In this document: piece after piece, positions 193 to 17,064 of the stretch
Layout of the letters: each line of letters begins with the position of its first letter
Position numbering within the stretch: position 1 is the stretch's first letter
UHGV virus genome: UHGV-1752853
Length of the DNA: 22,496 nt
Reading direction: 5' to 3' (one strand)
DNA from: a virus
Program-made: the position numbers and the translations under genes
Notes under the pieces: generated by a model
What the model was told of the DNA's origin: nothing
The model's database searches: none
The model's input: only the letters and a program-made list of their open reading frames with translations

Positions 193-220
193 AGGCTGCG
201 CAACTGCGTGGCCTTTTTTG
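193..220 (+). terminator. Second terminator-like hairpin upstream of the esterase gene
   Basis: AGGCTGCGC-AACT-GCGTGGCCT stem (two G-U pairs) followed by TTTTTTGTTTTT. Confidence 0.35.
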
Positions 221-283
221 TTTTTCTGGCTGCTGAAAGTGGCAGTCACAGTCCTTCATATCACCCGTGACCGGGGAGGAACA

Positions 284-2215
284 ATGACGTTTAAACATTA
301 TGATGTGGTCAGGGCAGGTTCAGCATCAGGGCTTGCTGAGCAGCTGGCACAGAAGATAAAAGAAGGGTGGCAACCGTATGGCAGTCCTGTGGCTGTCACA
401 CCAAACATCCTGATGCAGGCTGTTGCTGCAGAGGGTGATGTGAGCACGCCTGTGGTTGTTCCCGGCACGGGAGCCGGCGTAGCATCGGGAGTGACATCCG
501 GGGAGCCGGATTATTACTACGTGGTGGTACTCGCCGGACAGTCGAACGGGATGGCGTATGGTGAGGGTATTCCTCTTCCGGAGACTTACGACCGTCCTGA
601 CCCGCGTATCAAGCAACTGGCCAGACGCAGTACGGTAACGCCGGGTGGTGAAGCCTGTTCTTATAATGATGTCATTCAGGCAGACCACTGCCTGCATGAT
701 GTGCAGGATATGAGCAGCTTTAACCATCCGAAAGCTGATCTGAGCAAAGGGCAGTACGGGACTGTCGGTCAGGGACTGCATATTGCCAAAAAACTGCTGC
801 CTTACATTCCGCAGAATGCCGGGATACTTCTGGTTCCCTGCTGTCGTGGTGGTTCGGCATTCACCACCGGGGCTGATGGCTCATTCAGTGAGGCCAGAGG
901 TGCTTCTGCTGACTCTGCATGCTGGGGAGCCGGTAAACCCCTGTATCAGGACCTGGTAAGCCGCACCAGAGCGGCACTGGCGAAGAACCCGAAAAATAAA
1001 CTTCTGGCTGTGGTATGGATGCAGGGAGAGACAGACCTTGCATCAGGAAGTCAGCAGCATAATGGTTTATTCACTGCCATGGTTCAGCAGTTCAGAACAG
1101 ACCTGTCTTCAGTTGCAGCGCAGTGCGTGAGTGGAAATGCTGGCACGGTGCCGTGGATTTGTGGTGACACGACATATTACTGGAAGGCAACGTACGGTAC
1201 GCAGTATGACGCCTTATACAGCGCGTATAAAACGCTGTCAGCACAGCATATCTTCTTTGTTCCGTTCCTGACGGATGAGAATGGACAGAACACGCCAACG
1301 AATGCTCCGACGGAAGACCAGGATATTGTGGCTGTCGGGTATTACGGTGCGGCATCCAGAACAAACGGGAATTTCGTTGCGGCACAGCGCGAAAGTCATT
1401 TCAGCGCATGGGCACGCAGGGGCATCATTTCTGACCGTCTGGCCTCCGCTATTCTGCTCCATGCAGGGCGCACGGCTGAACTGATGGGCGGGCAGGTCGT
1501 GACACCACCGGATGAGAAGCCGTCACCTGACACCCCGTCAGCGGACGGGAAATCAATGACAACGCTGCTTTCTTACCGGGCATCGGAGTCAGGCGGAGCA
1601 CTGAAGTCACAGGGATGGGCGGCTGCCGGTGGGAGTGCCATTATTGTTGATGATGCCGGTGCCAGTGAAGGTAAGGCACTGAAACTGACCAAACAGACCG
1701 GAAGGTCATGGGCTGTACAGCATGATGCCGGTAATGGTGCCGACCTGCTGGAAAAAGGTGGCCTTGTCAGCTGTCGTTTTAAACTTGATGGCGCGCTTAC
1801 GGCTAATCAGTACGCACTGGCGCTGTACTGGCCGGTTTCTTCGCTGCCTCAGGGCGTCACACTGGAAGGTAATGCCGGTCATAACCTGCTGGCATCGTTT
1901 TACGTTCAGAGCGATGCCACAGACCTTAACGTGATGTACCACAAGGGTAATCCGGACCAGAACACGAAGCTGGGTTCATTCGGTGCATTTAATAACGAGT
2001 GGCATACGCTGGCATTCCGTTTTGCCGGTAACAACAGTATTGAGGTAACGCCGGTGATTGATGGTCAGGACGGAACACCGTTCATGCTGTCGCAGTCTCC
2101 GGTAGGGACACTGGCGGCAGACAAGTTACGCCTGACCGATATCACCAGTAATGCAACGTATCCGGTACTGATTGACAGCATTATGGTTGAAGTGAATAAC
2201 CTGTCAGCAGGATAA
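284..2215 (+). CDS. nanS-p: Prophage-encoded sialate 9-O-acetylesterase, NanS-p-like (N-terminal DUF1737-like domain plus SGNH-type esterase domain)
   Basis: ORF track 218-2215; start moved to ATG 284, which has a GGAGGA RBS at 275-280. N-terminus MTFKHYDVVRAG...KEGWQPYG and the esterase motif VVLAGQSNGMAYGEG are recognised from memory of Stx/lambdoid prophage NanS-p proteins. Position just upstream of the lysis cassette fits. Confidence 0.7.
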   Translation: MTFKHYDVVRAGSASGLAEQLAQKIKEGWQPYGSPVAVTPNILMQAVAAEGDVSTPVVVPGTGAGVASGVTSGEPDYYYVVVLAGQSNGMAYGEGIPLPETYDRPDPRIKQLARRSTVTPGGEACSYNDVIQADHCLHDVQDMSSFNHPKADLSKGQYGTVGQGLHIAKKLLPYIPQNAGILLVPCCRGGSAFTTGADGSFSEARGASADSACWGAGKPLYQDLVSRTRAALAKNPKNKLLAVVWMQGETDLASGSQQHNGLFTAMVQQFRTDLSSVAAQCVSGNAGTVPWICGDTTYYWKATYGTQYDALYSAYKTLSAQHIFFVPFLTDENGQNTPTNAPTEDQDIVAVGYYGAASRTNGNFVAAQRESHFSAWARRGIISDRLASAILLHAGRTAELMGGQVVTPPDEKPSPDTPSADGKSMTTLLSYRASESGGALKSQGWAAAGGSAIIVDDAGASEGKALKLTKQTGRSWAVQHDAGNGADLLEKGGLVSCRFKLDGALTANQYALALYWPVSSLPQGVTLEGNAGHNLLASFYVQSDATDLNVMYHKGNPDQNTKLGSFGAFNNEWHTLAFRFAGNNSIEVTPVIDGQDGTPFMLSQSPVGTLAADKLRLTDITSNATYPVLIDSIMVEVNNLSAG

Positions 2216-7087: not shown

Positions 7088-7453
7088 ATGGCGGCATTAC
7101 CTGTACTCCAGAGCCGAATTAAACCCCTGAGCACCCGACGAATGAATGTCCTGCAGGGTGAAGACCGACGCATCAGTGGTCGGGCAAGAGTGAATCTCAA
7201 ACGCAGGATCTGGCAGAGGGATGGCGGTCGCTGTTGTCTTTGTGGGCGTGTTGCTGACCTGTGTGACAGTGAACTCGATCACCGCATTGCTCTTCAGTTC
7301 GGTGGTGGTAATGAGGAGGCCAATCTCTGGACACTCTGTACGGAATGCCATCGTCTGAAGTCAGCCCGTGAGATGGCGAGCGGTATGCCGGATCCGAGGT
7401 TGCCGGAAGTGTCGGGTAGTGCCGACAGAACCGACGACATCATAGGGCTCTGA
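7088..7453 (+). CDS. HNH endonuclease (terminase/cos-associated, HK97 gp74-like position)
   Basis: HNH/zinc motif CCLCGR...ELDHRIALQFGG...NLWTLCTECHRLKS; sits directly upstream of the cos-like region and small terminase. Confidence 0.85.
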   Translation: MAALPVLQSRIKPLSTRRMNVLQGEDRRISGRARVNLKRRIWQRDGGRCCLCGRVADLCDSELDHRIALQFGGGNEEANLWTLCTECHRLKSAREMASGMPDPRLPEVSGSADRTDDIIGL

Positions 7454-7738
7454 CCAGACCCCGGGGGGGAGCTTACGGCGAAAAAAAACGATCGCCACGG
7501 ACACCGCGCCCCCCCTCACGCAGAGAAAAAATTCCCGTTCAGAAGTTATAAACATGTTTATACCATACATGGCGCTTTTCTGCATTTTTTACTTTTAAAT
7601 TCATTGTGTTGCTGGAGAAAAATGTTTATACCCTGTCCCCGCAAAATGTTTACAGGGCAGCGGTAAACATTTCCCCTGTTGCATCCATTCTCACCGGGGT
7701 GATTGCTGAAATTTTTCTGTGTTTTTCCGGAGGGAGGA
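7454..7738. other. Putative cos region: G7/C7 dyad (candidate cosN) plus repeated ATGTTTAYA elements (candidate terminase-binding sites)
   Basis: GGGGGGG at 7463-7469 and CCCCCCC at 7509-7515 in inverted context; ATGTTTATACC at 7554-7564 and 7622-7632, ATGTTTACAGGG at 7646-7657, inverted GTAAACAT at 7663-7670; lies between the HNH and TerS genes. Confidence 0.5.
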
Positions 7739-8317
7739 ATGCTGACGACGCAAAAACGAAAATTTGCGCTGGCGCTGATGTCGGGTAAAAACCGAACGGC
7801 CTCCGCCATTGAAGCAGGCTATTCAGAAAAGTCAGCCAGGTGTAAAGGTTCACAACTGGCAAAAGATCCGGAAGTGCTCGCTTTTATTGCCCGTAAAAAA
7901 TGCGAGATGGTGGAGGTGGATGAGGTTCCTGTTTACCGGAAGAAAAAAACACAGACAGAGGATAACAACCGGTGCTCAGGGACAACAGAAAAGAAAACAC
8001 AGACCGCACCAGAGCCGGATAACGATAAAAGCCTGCCGCCAGTGCCTGCCGGTATACCAGGCGTTGATTACATGGAGGACGGCCTTCCTGACCCGGTGAA
8101 AGCCATGGGCAGGATCCTGGTGGAAAACCTCAGCGTTGATCCGAAACTGGCACTGGATGCGGCCTGGCGACTGGCGCAGTTCACGCACCACAAAAAAGGG
8201 GATGCCGGTAAAAAATCGGCAAAAGGTGAGGCGGCAAAAAAAGCGGCTAACCGTTTTGCCACACCTGCGCCGCCGCCCCGTCTGGTGGTGAATAACAATC
8301 GTGAGGGAAATGAATGA
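7739..8317 (+). CDS. Terminase small subunit, P27 family
   Basis: GGGAGGA RBS then ATG 7739; N-terminal KRKFALALMSGKNRTASAIEAGYSEKSA helix-turn-helix pattern typical of P27-family TerS; 4-nt overlap with TerL. Confidence 0.75.
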   Translation: MLTTQKRKFALALMSGKNRTASAIEAGYSEKSARCKGSQLAKDPEVLAFIARKKCEMVEVDEVPVYRKKKTQTEDNNRCSGTTEKKTQTAPEPDNDKSLPPVPAGIPGVDYMEDGLPDPVKAMGRILVENLSVDPKLALDAAWRLAQFTHHKKGDAGKKSAKGEAAKKAANRFATPAPPPRLVVNNNREGNE

Positions 8318-9966
8318 CACCTGTATGGAGCACGGCATGTCCGGACTGGGCGGCGCGTCTGAAAAAAGGGCAGTCGATAATTCCGGCCCCCATTTATCCG
8401 GACCAGGCCGCGCAGGCACTGGCGATTTTTAAACAACTGCGGATTGTTGATGCACCGGGCAGTCCGGCGTTCGGGCAGGCCTGTGCCCCGTGGGTGTTTG
8501 ACCTGGTGGCGGCCCTGTTTGGCTCCTGTGATGCGCAGACCGGTGTACGCCATATCAAGGAAGTGTTCATTCTGATACCCAAGAAAAACTCCAAATCCAC
8601 GCTGGCCGCCGGGATCATGATGACGGCGCTGTTACTGAACTGGCGGCAGGCGGCGGGCTACACCATTCTGGCACCGACCGTGGAGGTTGCCACCAATGCC
8701 TTCAATCCCGCCCGCGATATGGTTAAGTGGGATGATGATCTGGATGATCTCTGTCAGGTGCAGACGCATATCCGTACCATCACCCACAGGATGACGGACA
8801 CCACCCTGAAGGTGGTGGCTGCGGATCCGAATACAGTGTCCGGTATCAAGTCTGTGGGGACACTGATTGATGAACTGTGGCTGTTTGGCAAGCAGTACAA
8901 GGCAGAGGACATGTTACGTGAAGCCATTGGCGGACTTGCCTCCCGTCCGGAAGGGTTTGTGGTGTATACGACCACACAGTCGAATGAGCCACCCGCCGGG
9001 GTGTTCAGGCAGAAGCTGCAGTATGCCCGTGATGTCCGTGACGGAAAAATTCATGATCCGCACTTTCTGCCGGTGATTTTTGAGCATCCGCCGGAGATGG
9101 TGGCCAGCGGGGAGCACCTGCTGATGGAGAACCTTGCCATGGTGAACCCGAATCTGGGGTATTCCGTGGATGAATCCTTTCAATTCCGAAAGGCAAAGGA
9201 GACGGGTGAAGAGGCTTTTCTCGGATTTATGGCAAAACACGCCAATGTGGAAATCGGTCTTGCCCTGCGCTCTGACCGGTGGGCAGGAGCGGATTTCTGG
9301 GAGCAGCAGGGTCGGAAGATAAGTTTTGAGGATATCCTGGCACGTTCTGAAGTGATCACTGTGGGCATTGACGGTGGAGGGCTTGACGATCTGCTGGGGA
9401 TGTATGTCATCGGCAGGGACCGGGAGAGCCGTGAATGGCTGGGCTGGGGGCATGCCTGGGCGCATGAAACCGCGATGGACAGACGAAAGAGCGAGGCATC
9501 CCGTTTCCAGGATTTTGTGGCCTGTGGCGATATGACCCTTGTCCGGCGGGTCGGGGATGACACGGCGGAGGTGGCGGAATATGTCAGGCGTATCCATGAG
9601 GCCGGGTTACTTGATCGTATCGGCATCGATCCGTCCGGCGTCGGACAAATTCTGGATGCGCTGGTGGAGGCCGGCATTCCGGAAGAGGGGGTGGCGGGGA
9701 TAAGCCAGGGCTGGAAACTGGGCGGTGCCATCAAAACCGCGGAACGCAAACTGGCGGAAGGTGTGCTGGTGCATGGCTGGCAGCCGATGATGGCCTGGTG
9801 TGTGGGGAATGCCAGGGTGGAGCCCAGAGGTAACGCCATTCTCATCACAAAACAGGCCAGCGGGAAGGGGAAGATAGATCCGCTGATGGCGCTGTTCAAT
9901 GCGGTATCCCTGATGTCGCTGAATCCGGAGCCGAAAAAGAAAGAGTACAGGGCTTTTTTCATATGA
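8314..9966 (+). CDS. Terminase large subunit
   Basis: 550 aa; Walker A-like ILIPKKNSKSTLAAG; length and position follow TerS. Confidence 0.85.
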   Translation: MTPVWSTACPDWAARLKKGQSIIPAPIYPDQAAQALAIFKQLRIVDAPGSPAFGQACAPWVFDLVAALFGSCDAQTGVRHIKEVFILIPKKNSKSTLAAGIMMTALLLNWRQAAGYTILAPTVEVATNAFNPARDMVKWDDDLDDLCQVQTHIRTITHRMTDTTLKVVAADPNTVSGIKSVGTLIDELWLFGKQYKAEDMLREAIGGLASRPEGFVVYTTTQSNEPPAGVFRQKLQYARDVRDGKIHDPHFLPVIFEHPPEMVASGEHLLMENLAMVNPNLGYSVDESFQFRKAKETGEEAFLGFMAKHANVEIGLALRSDRWAGADFWEQQGRKISFEDILARSEVITVGIDGGGLDDLLGMYVIGRDRESREWLGWGHAWAHETAMDRRKSEASRFQDFVACGDMTLVRRVGDDTAEVAEYVRRIHEAGLLDRIGIDPSGVGQILDALVEAGIPEEGVAGISQGWKLGGAIKTAERKLAEGVLVHGWQPMMAWCVGNARVEPRGNAILITKQASGKGKIDPLMALFNAVSLMSLNPEPKKKEYRAFFI

Positions 9967-10030: not shown

Positions 10031-11971
10031 GTGACGCTTAAACGGGCCTGTTCCCTGCTGACGGTGAAATCCTTCAGTGAGGATGAACGGGTGATCACCG
10101 GGATTGCATCAACGCCTTCTCCGGACAGGGATGGTGACATCCTGGAGCCGGAGGGGGCTGAATTCGGCAGTACAATCCCGTTTCTCTGGCAGCATGACCA
10201 TTCCCGCCCGGTGGGACAGTGTACGGTACGCCGGGTCAGAGAGGGGCTGGAAATCACGGCGGCACTGGTGAAGCCCGAACCGGGGATGCCGTCACAGCTG
10301 GCAGCCCGGCTGGATGAAGCCTGGGCCGCCATAAAAACCGGGCTGGTCAGGGGGCTTTCAGTGGGCTTCCGTGCCCATGAATACACTTTTCTTGACGGGG
10401 GTGGCCTGCATTTTCTGCGCTGGGAGATGATGGAGGTGTCTGCCGTCACCGTGCCCGCGAATGCGGAATGCACTATTCAGACCATTAAATCTTACGACCG
10501 ACCGCTTTCTGCCGCGTCCGGCAACCGGAAACCGGTGGTGAAAATCGCATCTTCTGCCGGCGTTCCGGCACAGTCAGCAACCGTTTTTCAGAAGGAAAAG
10601 ACAGGCATGAATATCGGTGAACAGATCAAAAGTTTCGAAAACAAACGTGCGGCACTGGTGGCAGCCCTGGATGACATCATGACGAAGGCCGCGAATGAGG
10701 GACGTACGCTGGATGCGGGCGAAGAGGAGAGCTACGACAATACGTCGGCGGAAATCAAGGCCGTGAATGCACACCTGAAACGTCTGCGTGACATGGAGGC
10801 GAACCTGGCCGCCACGGCCACGCCGGTGGAAAAGACGGCCGATGGCATGGTGAAAAGTGTGCAGCCGGCAGCGCCCGGCATCATCCGCGTGGAGCAGAAA
10901 CTGGATAAAGGGATCGGCTTTGCCCGTTTCGCCAAATCACTGGCGGCAGCCCGGGGTGTCCGTTCTGAGGCGCTGGAAGTGGCGCGTCGCCAGTATCCGG
11001 ATGACAGCCGCCTGCATCACGTCCTGAAATCTGCCATTGGTGCGGGCTCCACCACCGATCCCTCATGGGCAGGTAATCTGGTGGAGTATCAGGACTACGC
11101 GCAGGATTTTATTGCGTTCCTGCGTCCGCAGACCATCATCGGGCGTTTCGGGCAGGGGGGGCTACCGGCACTTCGCCAGGTGCCGTTCAATATCCGCGTG
11201 CATGCTCAGGTCTCCGGCGGGTCGGCCAGCTGGGTGGGGCAGGGTAAGGCAAAACCGCTGACAAAATTTGATTTTGAGTCCATCACATTTGGTCATGCGA
11301 AGGTGGCAGCCATTGCGGTGCTGACCGACGAGCTGATCCGTTTTGCCAGTCCGGCCGCAGATGCGCTGGTGCGTAATGCGCTGGCGGAGGCGGTGATAGC
11401 CCGTCTGGACACGGATTTTGTGGATCCCGGCAAGGCGGAGGTGGCAAATATTTCTCCTGCGTCGATCACCAGCGGTATCACTGCGGTGGCGTCAACAGGG
11501 ATCCCGGAAAGTGATGCGGAGGCGGCCTTCGGTCAGTTTGTGAAGGCGAACCTGCAGCCGACCGGTGCGGTGTGGCTGATGTCCAGCACGAATGCCCTGG
11601 CTCTGTCCATGCGCAAAAACGCGCTGGGCCAGAAGGAATATCCGGACATGACGCTGCTGGGCGGCACCTTCTGTGGCCTGCCGGTGATTGTCTCCCAGTA
11701 TGTGGGCAGTCAGCTGATCCTGGTGAACGCGCCGGATATTTATCTGGCGGATGACGGGGGGGGCGCGGTGGATATGTCCACCGAGGCCTCACTGGAGATG
11801 CAGGGTGAACCGACAGGGGACAGCACCACGCCGGTGCCGGTTGAACTGGTTTCCATGTTCCAGACCAACAGCGTGGCCATTCGTGCGGAACGCTGGATCA
11901 ACTGGCGTCGTCGCCGTACGGCAGCGGTGGCCGTGATTTCCGGGGTGAATTACGGCGCGGCGGCAGGCTGA
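10031..11971 (+). CDS. Fused HK97-family prohead protease and major capsid protein (with coiled-coil delta/scaffold segment)
   Basis: GTG start with AGGAGG RBS; N-terminal prohead-protease pattern (ITGIAS...GDILEPEGAEFG...PFLWQHD...LSVGF...VTVPAN), then a coiled-coil segment, then an HK97 MCP-like C-terminal half. Confidence 0.8.
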   Translation: MTLKRACSLLTVKSFSEDERVITGIASTPSPDRDGDILEPEGAEFGSTIPFLWQHDHSRPVGQCTVRRVREGLEITAALVKPEPGMPSQLAARLDEAWAAIKTGLVRGLSVGFRAHEYTFLDGGGLHFLRWEMMEVSAVTVPANAECTIQTIKSYDRPLSAASGNRKPVVKIASSAGVPAQSATVFQKEKTGMNIGEQIKSFENKRAALVAALDDIMTKAANEGRTLDAGEEESYDNTSAEIKAVNAHLKRLRDMEANLAATATPVEKTADGMVKSVQPAAPGIIRVEQKLDKGIGFARFAKSLAAARGVRSEALEVARRQYPDDSRLHHVLKSAIGAGSTTDPSWAGNLVEYQDYAQDFIAFLRPQTIIGRFGQGGLPALRQVPFNIRVHAQVSGGSASWVGQGKAKPLTKFDFESITFGHAKVAAIAVLTDELIRFASPAADALVRNALAEAVIARLDTDFVDPGKAEVANISPASITSGITAVASTGIPESDAEAAFGQFVKANLQPTGAVWLMSSTNALALSMRKNALGQKEYPDMTLLGGTFCGLPVIVSQYVGSQLILVNAPDIYLADDGGGAVDMSTEASLEMQGEPTGDSTTPVPVELVSMFQTNSVAIRAERWINWRRRRTAAVAVISGVNYGAAAG

Positions 11972-11996: not shown

Positions 11997-12263
11997 ATGA
12001 TGCCCCGCCGTACTGAGATGACCAGAATCAGATATCTGCAGATGACACATGACGCTGCGCCGGGGGATGTCCGTGATGTGGACGGGCGCTGCGCCCGTGT
12101 GCTTGTCCTGCTGGGGAAGGCGGAATATCTGCCCGCCGTGAAGCGTCCGCCCCGAAAACCACGCAGCCGGAGTACAGAACATGTGGAACCCGTTCAGGAA
12201 AAAATCGATCCCGCAACCGGTGAGTCAGCAGGGATGGAAGACCCTGCTGAGGTTTACCGGTGA
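11997..12263 (+). CDS. Hypothetical ORF (88 aa) overlapping the portal start in another frame
   Basis: ORF track; GGGAGGGCGGGG upstream; overlaps the portal frame by about 83 nt; may be a real small gene or a frameshifted N-terminus. Confidence 0.2.
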   Translation: MMPRRTEMTRIRYLQMTHDAAPGDVRDVDGRCARVLVLLGKAEYLPAVKRPPRKPRSRSTEHVEPVQEKIDPATGESAGMEDPAEVYR

Positions 12264-13530
12264 ATCTTATCCCGGAGCCTGGCAACGGGACGACGGAATA
12301 CATCAGGACACGGTACTGGCTTACCATGCCGTGTTTGCCTGTATCTCCCTGATTGCCGGTGATATTGCAAAAATGCGTCCCCGGGTCATGCACCGTGACC
12401 GGCACGGTGTGCCCTCTGAGGTCCGTACCGGCAGTGCGGCTGCGATATACCGCAGGCCCAACGCTTTTCAGAACCGTATTCAGTTTTTTGAACACTGGAT
12501 GAGTTCAAAGCTGTGTCACGGTAACACGGTGGCCCTGAAAATACGCAACAGCCGGGGAGAGACGGAGGCCCTGCGTCTGCTTGACTGGCACAGGGTGATG
12601 CCCCTGGTGGCGGATGACGGCTCCGTGTTTTATCAGATTTCACCCGACCGGATGGCGGGTCTGGGCAGTACGGTGACGGTACCGGCCCGGGAAATTATTC
12701 ATGACCGGTTTAACTGTTTTTTTCATCCGCTTGTGGGGCTGTCTCCCGTGTATGCGGCCGGGCTGGCAGCGATGAACGGACACTGGATCCAGCATAATTC
12801 GGCGTATTTTTTCCGCAACGGTGGCCGTCCCGGCGGAATTATTGAAGTGCCAGGCAGCATCACGACAGAAAACGCCCTTGAGCTGAAAGAGGCCTGGGAA
12901 CGTGGCTACAGCGGAGAGAATGCCGGGCGCACGGCCGTGCTGAGTGACGGGGCGAAGTATAACCCCGTGTCGGTGTCTGCCGTGGATGCGCAGACCGTGG
13001 AGCAGCTGAAGATGACGGCAGAAATTATCTGTTCGGTCTTCCATGTGCCGGCTTACAAGGCCGGGATGGGCAGTCTGCCCTCGTCAGACAACATTGAGGC
13101 GCTGGAGCAGCAGTATTACTCGCAGTGTCTCCAGACACTCATTGAGTCTGCTGAACTGCTGCTGGATGAGGCTTTTGGTCTGGAGGGTACATATTCGACG
13201 GAGTTTGACATCAGTGCCCTGCTGCGTATGGACACTGAACGCCGTATCAGAACGCTGGGCGAGGGGGTGAAAAACACCCTTCTCACGCCGAACGAGGCCC
13301 GCAGACGGGAAAATCTGCCGCCGCTGCCCGGGGGGGATGCGCTGTACCTGCAGCAGCAGAACTACAGTCTGGAGGCCCTTGCACGGCGTGATGCATCCGC
13401 AGATCCGTTTGCTTCCGGTAAGCAGACCAGCAGGCAGGAAGAGACGGCGTCTGACGTCGGGAGTAAGGCCATCAGTGAAACAGAGCGCGATGCCGTGAAG
13501 GCGATGTTCAGGGGGATAATGAGAAAATGA
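12181..13530 (+). CDS. Portal protein, HK97 family
   Basis: 449 aa; LAYHAVFACISLIAGDIA and downstream motifs resemble HK97-family portals. Confidence 0.8.
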   Translation: MWNPFRKKSIPQPVSQQGWKTLLRFTGESYPGAWQRDDGIHQDTVLAYHAVFACISLIAGDIAKMRPRVMHRDRHGVPSEVRTGSAAAIYRRPNAFQNRIQFFEHWMSSKLCHGNTVALKIRNSRGETEALRLLDWHRVMPLVADDGSVFYQISPDRMAGLGSTVTVPAREIIHDRFNCFFHPLVGLSPVYAAGLAAMNGHWIQHNSAYFFRNGGRPGGIIEVPGSITTENALELKEAWERGYSGENAGRTAVLSDGAKYNPVSVSAVDAQTVEQLKMTAEIICSVFHVPAYKAGMGSLPSSDNIEALEQQYYSQCLQTLIESAELLLDEAFGLEGTYSTEFDISALLRMDTERRIRTLGEGVKNTLLTPNEARRRENLPPLPGGDALYLQQQNYSLEALARRDASADPFASGKQTSRQEETASDVGSKAISETERDAVKAMFRGIMRK

Positions 13531-14606
13531 CGGAAAGGGAGTTATCCATTATCCGTGCGCTGGGTGAGGAGTTCCGGGCTGTGCTGGCGGACTTACAGCG
13601 CACATTTGAGGAGAAGATGGCCGCGCAGTCGCAGGCATTTGAAGAGAAGCTGGCGTCCCTGTCTGCGGTGCAGCAGAAAAGCGTGACGGCTGATGATATG
13701 CGTCCTGTGCTGCAGACGATGGTGGATGAGGCCGTGGGCACCATTCCGGTACCGCGCGACGGGCGTGATTACGATCCGGACGTGCTGCAGCAGGCGGTGC
13801 GGGAGGAGGTGCAGAAGGCAGTGTCAGAAATTCCGGTGCCTCAGGACGGTAAAAGTGTCACTGCGGATGATGTACGTCCGATGCTCGAGCAAATGGTGAA
13901 GAATGCAATGAGCCGGATACCGGTACCGCGCGACGGCCGCGATTACGATCCGGATGTACTGCAGAAGGCGGTGAATGACGCAGTCGCTAAAATTCCGGTA
14001 CCTGCAGACGGTAAAAGTATCACGCCTGACGATGTACAGCCCATGCTGTCGCAGATGGTGAATGACGCAGTGAGTCAGATCCCGGCACCGCGCGACGGCA
14101 GGAGTGTGACGGTTGACGATGTGCGTCCGGTGCTGCTGGCGATGGTGGATGAGGCCGTGAGCCGGTTACCTGTTCCGCAGGACGGGCGTGATGCTGCGGC
14201 CCTGGAAATACTGCCCGGTATTGATGAACAGAAACATTATCCGCGGGGGACTTATGCAACCCATCACGGCGGCCTGTGGCGTGCGTACGAAAAAACCTGC
14301 GGCATGCGCGGCTGGGAATGTCTTGTTGACGGCGTTGCCGGCGTGGACATTCAGCAGGACGGTGCGCGATGTTTCACCGTCACGCTGACGCGGTCCGGTG
14401 GCGAAAGGAACGTGAAGTCTTTCGCACTTCCGGTCATGCTTTACCGGGGCGTGTTTGCAGAGGGTGCAGAATACCAGCCGGGCGACATCGTCACCTGGGG
14501 GGGCTCACTGTGGCACTGCAATGCGCTGACGACGGACAGGCCCGGTGAAACCGGGACAACCGGCTGGACGCTGGCGGTGAAAAAAGGGCGGGATCTGAGG
14601 GGCTGA
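13527..14606 (+). CDS. Head-module protein with tandem ~40-aa repeats and C-terminal carbohydrate-binding-like (CBM5/12-like) motifs
   Basis: Repeats of IPVPRDGRDYDPDVLQ.AV... and IPVP.DGKS.T.DDV.PML.QMV across about 13680-14190; C-terminal YQPGDIVTWGGSLWHCNALTTDRPGE resembles the chitin-binding-domain consensus. Confidence 0.55.
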   Translation: MTERELSIIRALGEEFRAVLADLQRTFEEKMAAQSQAFEEKLASLSAVQQKSVTADDMRPVLQTMVDEAVGTIPVPRDGRDYDPDVLQQAVREEVQKAVSEIPVPQDGKSVTADDVRPMLEQMVKNAMSRIPVPRDGRDYDPDVLQKAVNDAVAKIPVPADGKSITPDDVQPMLSQMVNDAVSQIPAPRDGRSVTVDDVRPVLLAMVDEAVSRLPVPQDGRDAAALEILPGIDEQKHYPRGTYATHHGGLWRAYEKTCGMRGWECLVDGVAGVDIQQDGARCFTVTLTRSGGERNVKSFALPVMLYRGVFAEGAEYQPGDIVTWGGSLWHCNALTTDRPGETGTTGWTLAVKKGRDLRG

Positions 14607-14935
14607 TGATGACAGAACTGGTCACGCCGGAAGCGGCGAAAATGCATCTGCGCATTGATGACAGTGAGGGGGAGGCGGATCTGCTGCTGAAAATTCAGGG
14701 GAGCAGCGCAGTCCTGCTTTCCTGGCTGCAGGAGGGCAGGCGTCTGGTGGTGAACGATGATGGTGAACTGATCGAGGGTGAGGCGCTGAGCCGGGTACAG
14801 ACGGCCCTGCTGTTCCTGCTGGGATATCTGGACAGGAACCGGGGCGGGGAGGAAGAGGAGAAGCTGATGCGCGGGGAACTGCCCCTGTCGGTCACGATGC
14901 TGATCCATGATCTCCGTAAGCCTGTCATTGTGTGA
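14606..14935 (+). CDS. Head-tail connector (gp6-like) protein
   Basis: N-terminal VTPEAAKMHLRIDDSEGEADLL resembles the gp6-like connector family; start overlaps the upstream stop. Confidence 0.65.
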   Translation: MMTELVTPEAAKMHLRIDDSEGEADLLLKIQGSSAVLLSWLQEGRRLVVNDDGELIEGEALSRVQTALLFLLGYLDRNRGGEEEEKLMRGELPLSVTMLIHDLRKPVIV

Positions 14936-15039: not shown

Positions 15040-15231
15040 ATGAACGGGCAACAGGAAAACGAACTCATCAGTGTACTGAGGGCGCTGGCAGCCGCCCAGA
15101 TAAAACAGGCGGAGGCCATCAACAGGCTGGCGGAGGCGGATGAGACCCTGTACTCACTCATCGCCCGCACGCTGGCGGACGAGACGGAGGAAGAGCCGGA
15201 GACGTATCTTGACGGAACGCCACGGAGGTGA
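15040..15231 (+). CDS. Small hypothetical protein (63 aa)
   Basis: ORF track; GAGGA RBS 7 nt upstream; acidic C-terminus. Confidence 0.4.
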   Translation: MNGQQENELISVLRALAAAQIKQAEAINRLAEADETLYSLIARTLADETEEEPETYLDGTPRR

Positions 15232-16545: not shown

Positions 16546-17064
16546 ATGTCAGTTGTCACCCAGGGCACGCAGTTCTATGTGCTCAATAACGGCAAAGTCA
16601 GTGAAATTGAATGTATCACGTCGTTTTCCCCGGGCAGTAACCCGGCCGACCAGATAGAGGATACCTGTCTGAGTGAGACCAGCACGCGGACCTATAAAAA
16701 GGGGCTGCGCACGCCGGGTGAGGCCACGGTGGGGCTCAATGCCGATCCGGCCAATGCCAGCCATATCATGCTCAGTAATCTTGCTGAGTCCAGTGACCAG
16801 ACGGTGCTGACCTTTGCCGTGGGCTGGTCCGACGGTACGGAGGCCCCCACAGCCTCCACGGAGGCCGATGCCGTAAATGGTATGGCCCTGCCGGACACCC
16901 GGACCTGGTATGTGTTCCAGGGCTACGTGTCGGATTTTCCGTTTGACTTTCAGGCTAACAGCGTGGTGCAGACATCAGCCACCATTCAGCGTTCCGGTCA
17001 GGGGGTGTGGGTGCCGAAACAGCAGACGGTTACTCCCGGTCCGGCAGCCGCCGTGACGACCTGA
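16546..17064 (+). CDS. Major tail protein
   Basis: AGGAG RBS; 172 aa; position immediately upstream of the G/GT chaperone pair. Confidence 0.65.

What the first reader, a model, noticed from the sequence alone, without database searches (positions are those of the whole stretch)
13527..14606. Head-module protein combining tandem repeats with carbohydrate-binding-like C-terminal motifs
The 359-aa protein is encoded between the portal and head-tail connector genes. It has about 3.5 tandem ~40-aa repeats, visible as DNA direct repeats across about 13680-14190. Its C-terminal region carries two motifs resembling the CBM5/12 chitin-binding consensus (HYPRGTYATHHGGLWRAYE and YQPGDIVTWGGSLWHCNALTTDRPGE). 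A capsid-associated protein with glycan-binding modules could mediate adherence of virions to surfaces or mucus. The repeat number may vary between prophage copies.
Basis: partly seen in the sequence, partly recalled or inferred. Interest (0 to 1): 0.5.

Follow-up and report, generated by a model that had tools for sequence, protein, structure and literature searches.

The report
Portal-linked repeat protein with chitin-binding-like fold
The gene is real and encodes a widespread but unstudied phage head-module protein made of a long helix, six short repeats and an end domain folded like two chitin-binding modules; it is genetically tied to the portal, and nothing yet shows that it coats the capsid or binds sugars.

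Summary
The 359-aa ORF (13527-14606, +) is real and lies between the portal and the Ad1 head-tail adaptor of a lambdoid, Stx-phage-like prophage. The repeat description needs correcting. There are six units of 25-29 aa (nt 13677-14186) in two alternating types, not 3.5 units of 40 aa.

Repeat number does vary between relatives (245+54n aa).

The protein belongs to a large uncharacterised family (PHROG 1289; 5558 cluster representatives) always encoded just after the portal. Databases call it "portal protein" because a one-base difference in a G-run (G5 or G6) fuses it in frame to the portal in about a third of E. coli relatives.

The C-domain is the most conserved segment of the whole head-tail module, which is unlike an adhesin. 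The most likely reading is a portal-associated minor virion protein. An external fibre remains a live rival. This is an ordinary member of a poorly understood family.

The parts
13527..14606 (+). Gene X: 359-aa protein of the PHROG 1289 family, usually annotated 'phage portal protein'
   Evidence: ORF. phrog_1289 E 4.4e-144 and phrog_2271 E 1.1e-217, matching the C-terminal half of an 859-position portal+X profile. No PF04860 match on X itself.
13527..13676 (+). N-terminal segment (aa 1-50): one long alpha-helix, poorly conserved in sequence
   Evidence: AF2 full-length model has a helix at 3-50 with pLDDT 74-83. No BLASTP similarity to distant homologues, whose C-domains are 53-55% identical.
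13677..14186 (+). Six tandem units of 25-29 aa (aa 51-220), types A,B,A,B,A,A; each is a 13-18-aa helix plus a 12-aa IPVPxDG-containing linker; strongly acidic spacer
   Evidence: Unit table and identities. DNA repeats D1/D2. AF2 helices at 55-71, 84-100, 113-129, 142-154, 167-183 and 196-213, with pLDDT mostly below 50 across the repeat region. N-part pI 4.5.
14187..14606 (+). Conserved C-terminal all-beta domain (aa 221-359)
14226..14327 (+).
   Evidence: hhalign of unit 1 against unit 2: P 7.8e-5, 34 aligned columns. Not detected by Pfam.
14454..14579 (+).
   Evidence: Pfam PF02839 at aa 310-340: 23.9 bits for the whole protein, 27.0 bits for the domain alone, cut-off 26.2. PDB sequence hits to chitinase ChBD1 2rts and the Anabaena CIS protein All3316.
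13510..13530 (+). Portal/X junction: AGGGGG (Shine-Dalgarno-like, five G) 11 nt upstream of the X ATG; the portal stop overlaps the X start (ATGA); X is in the -1 frame relative to the portal
   Evidence: Sequence. The same G5 junction is in L001-L033. A G6 version in L034-L038 fuses the two ORFs. IMG/VR holds 76 G5 and 41 G6 loci.
12181..13530 (+). Portal protein (449 aa), the upstream partner gene
   Evidence: PF04860 at 3.8e-78, full-length match.
14606..14935 (+). Head-tail adaptor Ad1, downstream neighbour; its start overlaps the X stop by 1 nt
   Evidence: phrog_40 E 1.7e-18. ORF coordinates.
10031..11971 (+). Prohead protease / major capsid protein fusion, the head type with which X was found in both distant loci where the capsid gene could be seen
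   Evidence: PF04586 plus PF05065. The same arrangement occurs in the distant loci L039 and L041.

Best explanation
Gene X encodes a conserved partner of the portal in one large lineage of HK97-like siphophage head modules, the type with a protease-capsid fusion.

It is built like a thin fibre:
- an N-terminal 50-aa helix;
- a copy-number-variable, acidic spacer of helix-plus-linker units;
- a strongly conserved C-terminal beta-domain made of two diverged CBM5/12-like units around a beta-hairpin insert.

It is normally translated as a separate protein from its own ribosome-binding site, which sits inside the last codons of the portal gene.

I think it most likely sits at the portal vertex as a low-copy minor virion protein. 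Its N-terminus would lie next to the portal's C-terminal crown, on the inner side of the capsid. The conserved C-domain would engage a partner that is the same in all these phages, either a phage component or a universal polymer such as the peptidoglycan glycan chain after ejection. A host-specific surface glycan is less likely.

Shown: the anatomy, the fold, family membership, conserved synteny, variable repeat number, the G5/G6 split-or-fused polymorphism, and purifying selection.

Inferred: the location at the portal, the interior side, and the nature of the ligand.
For: 1. Synteny (portal, then X, then Ad1) is kept from E. coli prophages to Halomonas, a metagenome phage and a Rhizobium phage. 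In the Halomonas and metagenome loci, TerL, the protease-MCP fusion and a small ORF also lie upstream. In EBPR siphovirus 3, X likewise directly follows the portal.

2. In-frame fusions to the portal C-terminus occur in three settings:
- the E. coli G6 clade, including phages 2851, YYZ-2008 and vB_EcoS-705R7;
- a 1237-aa portal-X protein with more than 20 repeats (P0131);
- Moraxella phage Mcat9, whose 479-aa portal ends in unit 2 alone.

3. The C-domain shows the same purifying selection in fused and split lineages (dN/dS 0.18-0.19).

4. The C-domain is 53-55% identical to distant homologues. The same comparisons give portal 40-49%, capsid 41-46%, Ad1 30% and tail tube 41-45%. This implies a conserved partner.

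5. The canonical chitin-binding aromatic pair is missing.

6. From established structures of SPP1, P22, T4 and HK97-type portals, the portal C-terminus (crown) faces the capsid interior. The gene position matches that of the portal-bound internal proteins SPP1 gp7 and Mu F. Both points rest on my own knowledge and were not tested here.
Against: - Portal fusions are rare in the family (2 of the 150 best cluster representatives). The Mcat9-type architecture has essentially no relatives.
- All fused forms keep the internal ribosome-binding site and ATG, so free X may still be made and the fusion may merely be tolerated.
- Tight gene overlap is general in this operon: X also overlaps Ad1.
- The build resembles external phage fibres rather than known internal proteins. 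It has an acidic helical stalk (pI 4.5), true collagen-like G-x-D runs in homologues such as P0136, and an end domain resembling those of tail fibres.
- No virion proteomics or structure was found for any family member.
Confidence: 0.4

Rival explanations
1. External head or neck fibre / decoration protein. X would be a parallel trimer anchored on the outside of the capsid or collar. Its tandem CBM5/12-like end would bind a polysaccharide and help virions adhere to cells, surfaces or mucus.
For: - The architecture is fibre-like: a long N-terminal helix, a repeat stalk and a beta-domain at the end.
- Homologues carry collagen-like (G-x-D)n runs before and after the C-domain, which implies parallel trimers.
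- Structural neighbours include tail-fibre proteins of phages 7-7-1, A-1(L), Milano and Pa193, and BFVD 'collagen triple helix repeat' / CBM5/12 proteins.
- Copy-number variation of the stalk is typical of exposed fibres.
- Pfam CBM_5_12 is at or just above threshold.
Against: - The ligand-binding aromatic pair is absent.
- The C-domain is the most conserved part of the module across phages of unrelated hosts and habitats, whereas adhesin tips usually diverge fastest.
- No decoration-family hit was found.
- Fusion to the portal C-terminus, which is interior, is incompatible with an exterior position unless the fused copies are baggage.
Confidence: 0.3
2. Assembly-only factor. X would be an acidic, helical, scaffold-like adaptor that ties the portal to the protease-capsid fusion subunits while the procapsid nucleates. 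It would then be degraded or expelled and be absent from mature virions.
For: - The N-terminal part is acidic and alpha-helical, like scaffolding proteins.
- In the two distant loci where the capsid gene could be seen (L039, L041), X sits in a head module with the protease-MCP fusion, which lacks a separate scaffold gene.
- A conserved C-domain would fit a conserved phage partner.
- The model tolerates both portal fusion and variable linker length.
Against: - A compact, highly conserved beta-domain and collagen-like segments are not scaffold features.
- The capsid fusion already carries a coiled-coil linker that could act as a delta domain (translation).
- There is no direct evidence.
Confidence: 0.15
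3. The G-run is a programmed -1 frameshift or switch site. One gene pair would then make both a plain portal and a portal-X isoform, and the mixture would be functional.
For: - G5 (split) and G6 (fused) forms both circulate: 76 and 41 IMG/VR loci.
- Two identical 609-nt flank haplotypes carry both states.
- A -1 slip of tRNA-Gly on G-GGG would join the frames in G5 forms. The next codon is the rare ATA.
Against: - There is no X-XXY-YYZ heptamer.
- There is no stable downstream RNA structure (z = -0.96).
- One relative has the run interrupted (AGGGAG, L001).
- Distant homologues overlap the portal in the +1 frame without a G-run.
- G6 forms are mostly one clade, so this looks like an ordinary indel in the ribosome-binding site.
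Confidence: 0.05

Closest known systems
PHROG 1289 / PHROG 2271 'portal protein' family, e.g. BP-4795 ORF59 (split) and the 859-aa portal of phage 2851 (fused)
   Same: Direct homologues with the same helix / repeat / C-domain build and the same position between portal and Ad1. C-domain identity is 67-70%.
   Different: The window copy has six repeat units, whereas E. coli relatives form a 245+54n aa series. The name 'portal protein' is an annotation carry-over from fused forms: X itself has no portal domain.
CBM5/CBM12 chitin-binding modules (Pfam PF02839), e.g. Serratia ChiB CBM5, Streptomyces ChiC ChBD, Pyrococcus ChBD1
   Different: The exposed aromatic pair after the third strand (WW/YW) is A-L here and variable in the family. 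The Pfam score straddles the cut-off. The two units are separated by a 40-aa beta insert. The protein is cytoplasmically made and virion-associated rather than part of a secreted enzyme.
SPP1 gp7 / Mu gpF (MuF) portal-bound minor head proteins
   Same: The gene lies immediately after the portal and is occasionally fused to it. The logic is modular, with an N-terminal part plus a variable C-terminal module. This comparison rests on my own knowledge of that family.
   Different: There is no sequence or profile similarity to Phage_Mu_F. The fold and composition differ.
Phage fibres with collagen-like shafts and CBM5/12-like end domains, and head fibres or decorations such as phi29 gp8.5 and SPP1 gp12
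   Same: Elongated repeat stalk, collagen-like triplets in homologues, and a small beta end domain.
   Different: The window copy has no collagen run. The gene sits in the head module beside the portal. The end domain is highly conserved rather than variable.
P22 portal C-terminal barrel
   Same: In the fused forms, a long helical extension follows the portal crown.
   Different: The extension is not homologous to the barrel. It is usually a separate polypeptide, is interrupted by proline-rich linkers, and ends in a beta-domain.

Membership tests
CBM5/12 (Pfam PF02839 CBM_5_12) | Profile score at or above Pfam's gathering cut-off (26.2 bits) | tested here: inconclusive
   Whole protein 23.9 bits. 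C-terminal 145 aa alone 27.0 bits. Close homologue P0009 28.1 bits; E. coli homologues 19.9-20.0 bits. Only unit 2 is detected.
CBM5/12 (Pfam PF02839 CBM_5_12) | Small three-stranded antiparallel beta fold of about 45 residues | tested here: met
CBM5/12 (Pfam PF02839 CBM_5_12) | Surface-exposed aromatic pair (WW/YW) that stacks on the polysaccharide | tested here: not met
   In the alignment to chitinase ChBD1 (2rts), the Y-W pair aligns to A-L. The family consensus at these positions is 'x' with no aromatic conservation, in both units.
CBM5/12 (Pfam PF02839 CBM_5_12) | Binding to chitin or cellulose | not testable with these tools
   Needs pull-down of the recombinant C-domain with chitin, cellulose or peptidoglycan.
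Phage portal protein (PF04860), the name databases give it | Portal wing/stem/clip/crown domain | tested here: not met
   No PF04860 match on X at E<=1. The neighbouring ORF 12181-13530 carries the complete domain.
PHROG 1289 (stand-alone X family) | Full-length profile match and position after the portal | tested here: met
   E 4.4e-144. Synteny conserved in near and distant loci.
Capsid decoration proteins (lambda gpD / SHP, Dec, Hoc, Soc, pb10, gp12-like) | Similarity to a known decoration family, and binding to the capsid exterior | tested here: not met
SPP1 gp7 / MuF minor head proteins (PF04233) | MuF domain | tested here: not met
   No Phage_Mu_F hit. Only the gene position is shared.
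Collagen-like phage fibre | Run of several G-x-y triplets | tested here: not met
   The window protein has only single D-G-(K/R)-(D/S) turns. Homologue P0136 has eight consecutive G-x-D triplets, and others have runs after the C-domain.

The most novel reading that the evidence does not exclude
X defines a very large, unrecognised class of portal-crown-tethered internal fibres in HK97-like siphophages. It would be a trimeric, thin, beads-on-a-string protein stored on the portal axis. At infection it would leave through the tail and use its tandem CBM5/12-like module to hold the peptidoglycan glycan strand. That would make it the first 'inner core / ejection' protein for this phage type. The one-base G-run would toggle between a free and a portal-fused form.
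Probability: 0.15. Interest if true: 0.65.

Novelty: new member of a known kind. Interest (0 to 1): 0.35.

Why it matters
- The family is very large: 5558 cluster representatives at 50% identity. It is present in long-tailed Stx1/Stx2c-converting phages of EHEC and is systematically mislabelled 'portal protein'.
- Its C-domain is the most conserved piece of the head-tail module, yet no function, location or structure is known.
- Knowing whether it sits inside at the portal crown or outside as a fibre would fill a gap in how this common head type assembles or infects.
- It would also correct annotation. PGAP flags the ancestral split form as a 'frameshifted' pseudogene.
- For the specific finding, the result is mostly clarifying. 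The fold resemblance is real, the sugar-binding and mucus-adherence story is unsupported, and the window copy is an ordinary family member.

Tried and rejected
- Tandem Repeats Finder found nothing in the repeat region because the copies are too diverged. The repeat finder and a protein-level split were used instead.
- The search for related loci on genome contigs returned no relatives, because the back-translated patterns were too window-specific.
- NCBIfam gave no meaningful hit.
- PF28083 (QatB), TetR_C_35 and DUF4244, listed for homologues, are faint repeat-driven matches below cut-off and were dismissed.
- A DNA-binding role for the C-domain was rejected: its median pI is 6.2 with net charge about -1.
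- Programmed frameshifting has no supporting RNA structure or heptamer and is not conserved.
- A search for more Mcat9-type portals ending in a single CBM-like unit found one fragment only.
- The afdb50 fold library was unavailable.
- Five literature searches found no paper on this protein, its location or its virion proteomics.
- ORFs on the opposite strand under X (13508-13744, 14020-14259, 14441-14908) are mechanical and have no support.

Full report
**What is there**

The window is the late region of a lambdoid, Stx-phage-like prophage. In order it carries:
- a NanS-p-type sialate O-acetylesterase;
- a lysis cassette;
- an HNH endonuclease, TerS and TerL;
- a prohead-protease / major-capsid fusion (10031-11971);
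- the portal (12181-13530);
- the ORF in question (13527-14606, here called X);
- the Ad1 adaptor (14606-14935), then the head-closure protein, a gp10-like protein, the tail terminator, the tail tube, a chaperone and the tape measure.

X is a 359-aa ORF with an ATG start. An AGGGGG Shine-Dalgarno-like run lies 11 nt upstream. The portal stop overlaps the X start (ATGA), and X is in the -1 frame relative to the portal.

**The repeats**

The geometry differs from the description.
- At protein level there are six units of 29, 29, 29, 25, 29 and 29 aa (aa 51-220).
- Each ends in I-P-V-P-x-D-G.
- There are two alternating types, A (KSVTxDDVRPML...) and B (RDYDPDVLQ...), so the apparent super-unit is 54-58 aa.
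- Only 3 of 20000 shuffles of the protein contain three or more P.P..G motifs, against six observed.
- AF2 on the full protein gives a 48-residue N-terminal helix, then six 13-18-residue helices separated by 12-residue linkers, with pLDDT mostly below 50 across this repeat region. This is a beads-on-a-string stalk that is either flexible or needs oligomerisation to order.

**The C-terminal domain**

Residues 215-359, modelled with 72 diverse homologues, give a confident all-beta model (pLDDT 93.2).
- Foldseek against the PDB and BFVD agrees. It shows no solved structure of the whole domain.
- Pfam CBM_5_12 hits unit 2 (aa 310-340) at 23.9 bits for the whole protein and 27.0 bits for the domain alone, against a cut-off of 26.2. 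A close homologue scores 28.1 bits.
- Unit 1 (aa 234-267) is not found by Pfam. It aligns to unit 2 profile-to-profile at P 7.8e-5, while both controls against the middle segment fail.

However, the exposed aromatic pair that binds chitin in canonical modules aligns to A-L here and is not aromatic anywhere in the family consensus. The fold is shared; the known binding site is not.

**The family**

The C-domain alone retrieves 5558 cluster representatives at E<=1e-3 and 328 at E<=1e-30. The domain is almost always at the C-terminus of a 170-550-aa protein.
- Members share the N-terminal helix.
- They carry from zero to more than twenty helix-linker repeats.
- Some carry true collagen-like (G-x-D)n runs before or after the C-domain, which implies parallel trimers.
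- PHROGs holds the family as phrog_1289 (stand-alone) and phrog_2271 (an 859-position portal+X profile), both labelled 'portal protein'.
- X directly follows the portal in every locus examined, and Ad1 follows X wherever it could be identified. These include a Halomonas prophage, a metagenome phage, Rhizobium phage RHph_X2_26 and EBPR siphovirus 3.
- No paper on the protein was found.

**Copy number**

Among E. coli relatives, X length follows 245+54n aa: 245, 299, 353, 407, 461, 515 and 569. P0006 is identical to the window protein except for an in-register deletion of one 29-aa unit.

**Why it is called 'portal protein'**

- The window, 30 IMG/VR loci and phages BP-4795, 1717, Stx1_14040 and Lys8385Vzw have AGGGGGAT (G5) and two ORFs.
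- Many E. coli O157-type contigs and phages 2851, YYZ-2008 and vB_EcoS-705R7 have AGGGGGGAT (G6). This puts X in frame with the portal as one protein of about 860 aa.
- IMG/VR holds 76 G5 and 41 G6 loci.
- G6 is mostly one clade, and two flank haplotypes carry both states.
- One relative has AGGGAG instead. Distant homologues overlap the portal by 11 nt in the other frame with no G-run.

The simplest reading is that the run is X's ribosome-binding site and that a one-base insertion created a tolerated fusion. I found no heptamer and no downstream RNA structure that would suggest programmed frameshifting. PGAP treats the fused form as the norm and flags a split one as 'frameshifted', which looks backwards.

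**Function**

Two observations argue against a habitat-specific adhesin.
- The binding-site aromatics are missing.
- The C-domain is the most conserved piece of the module. It is 53-55% identical to the Halomonas and metagenome homologues, against 40-49% for the portal, 41-46% for the capsid, 30% for Ad1 and 41-45% for the tail tube. Within E. coli prophages dN/dS is about 0.18, the same in fused and split lineages.

A domain that conserved should recognise something common to all these phages.

The only positional clue is fusion to the portal C-terminus, seen in three settings: the E. coli G6 clade, P0131 and Moraxella Mcat9. From established portal structures, that end is in the crown, inside the capsid. 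I therefore favour a portal-associated minor virion protein on the inner side, at confidence 0.4. A sub-hypothesis is that it is ejected and binds peptidoglycan.

The caveats are real.
- Fusions are rare and keep the internal start site.
- The Mcat9 type has no relatives.
- The acidic helical stalk, the collagen-like runs in homologues and the fibre-like structural neighbours all look like an external fibre.

That rival gets 0.3, a scaffold-like assembly adaptor 0.15, and a frameshift-controlled portal isoform 0.05.

**Verdict**

The CBM5/12 resemblance is genuine at the fold level and borderline at the profile level. The interpretation as a glycan-binding capsid decoration is not supported. 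The window copy is an ordinary member (98% identical to database entries) of a very large, uncharacterised, mis-annotated family. The interest lies in the family rather than in this locus.

Noticed in passing
window 13510-13530, and L001-L164: A one-base G-run length difference (G5 or G6) at the portal/X junction decides whether the two genes are separate or fused. Both states are common in E. coli prophages and in named Stx phages. PGAP annotates a split form as a 'frameshifted' pseudogene, although the split form appears ancestral.
   Followed up: yes
window 218-2215 (+): A 665-aa ORF with DUF1737 + SASA (sialate O-acetylesterase) + DUF6645. This looks like a NanS-p-type esterase, which to my knowledge is typical of Stx prophages. 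It is a mucin-sugar-related enzyme in the same prophage and is unrelated to X.
   Followed up: partly
window 10031-11971 (+): The prohead protease (Peptidase_S78) and the HK97-type major capsid protein are one 646-aa fusion ORF with a coiled-coil linker. The same fusion accompanies X in the two distant loci where the capsid gene was visible (L039, L041).
   Followed up: partly
window 7088-7453 (+), 7703-9966 (+): An HNH endonuclease gene lies just upstream of TerS/TerL. To my knowledge this arrangement is seen in HK97-like cos-packaging phages.
   Followed up: no
window 15040-15231 (+): A small 63-aa ORF lies between Ad1 and the head-closure gene. An ORF at the same position is annotated as a hypothetical protein in the E. 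coli relative L001 (5509-5700).
   Followed up: no
window 16546-17064 (+), compared with L034-L038 and L043: The window's tail tube protein (172 aa) lacks the C-terminal Ig-like domain carried by the 238-aa major tail proteins of the E. coli O157-type relatives.
   Followed up: no
L166 (Moraxella phage Mcat9) 2726-4165: The 479-aa portal ends in a single CBM5/12-like unit homologous to unit 2 of X, joined by a linker of about 25 aa, and there is no separate X gene. Only one related fragment exists in the protein database, so this may be a deletion remnant.
   Followed up: partly
P0199 (4341 aa): A giant protein with 32 matches to the unit-2 region (query residues 91-141) of the X C-domain. It is presumably a fibre or adhesin built of many CBM5/12-like units.
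   Followed up: no
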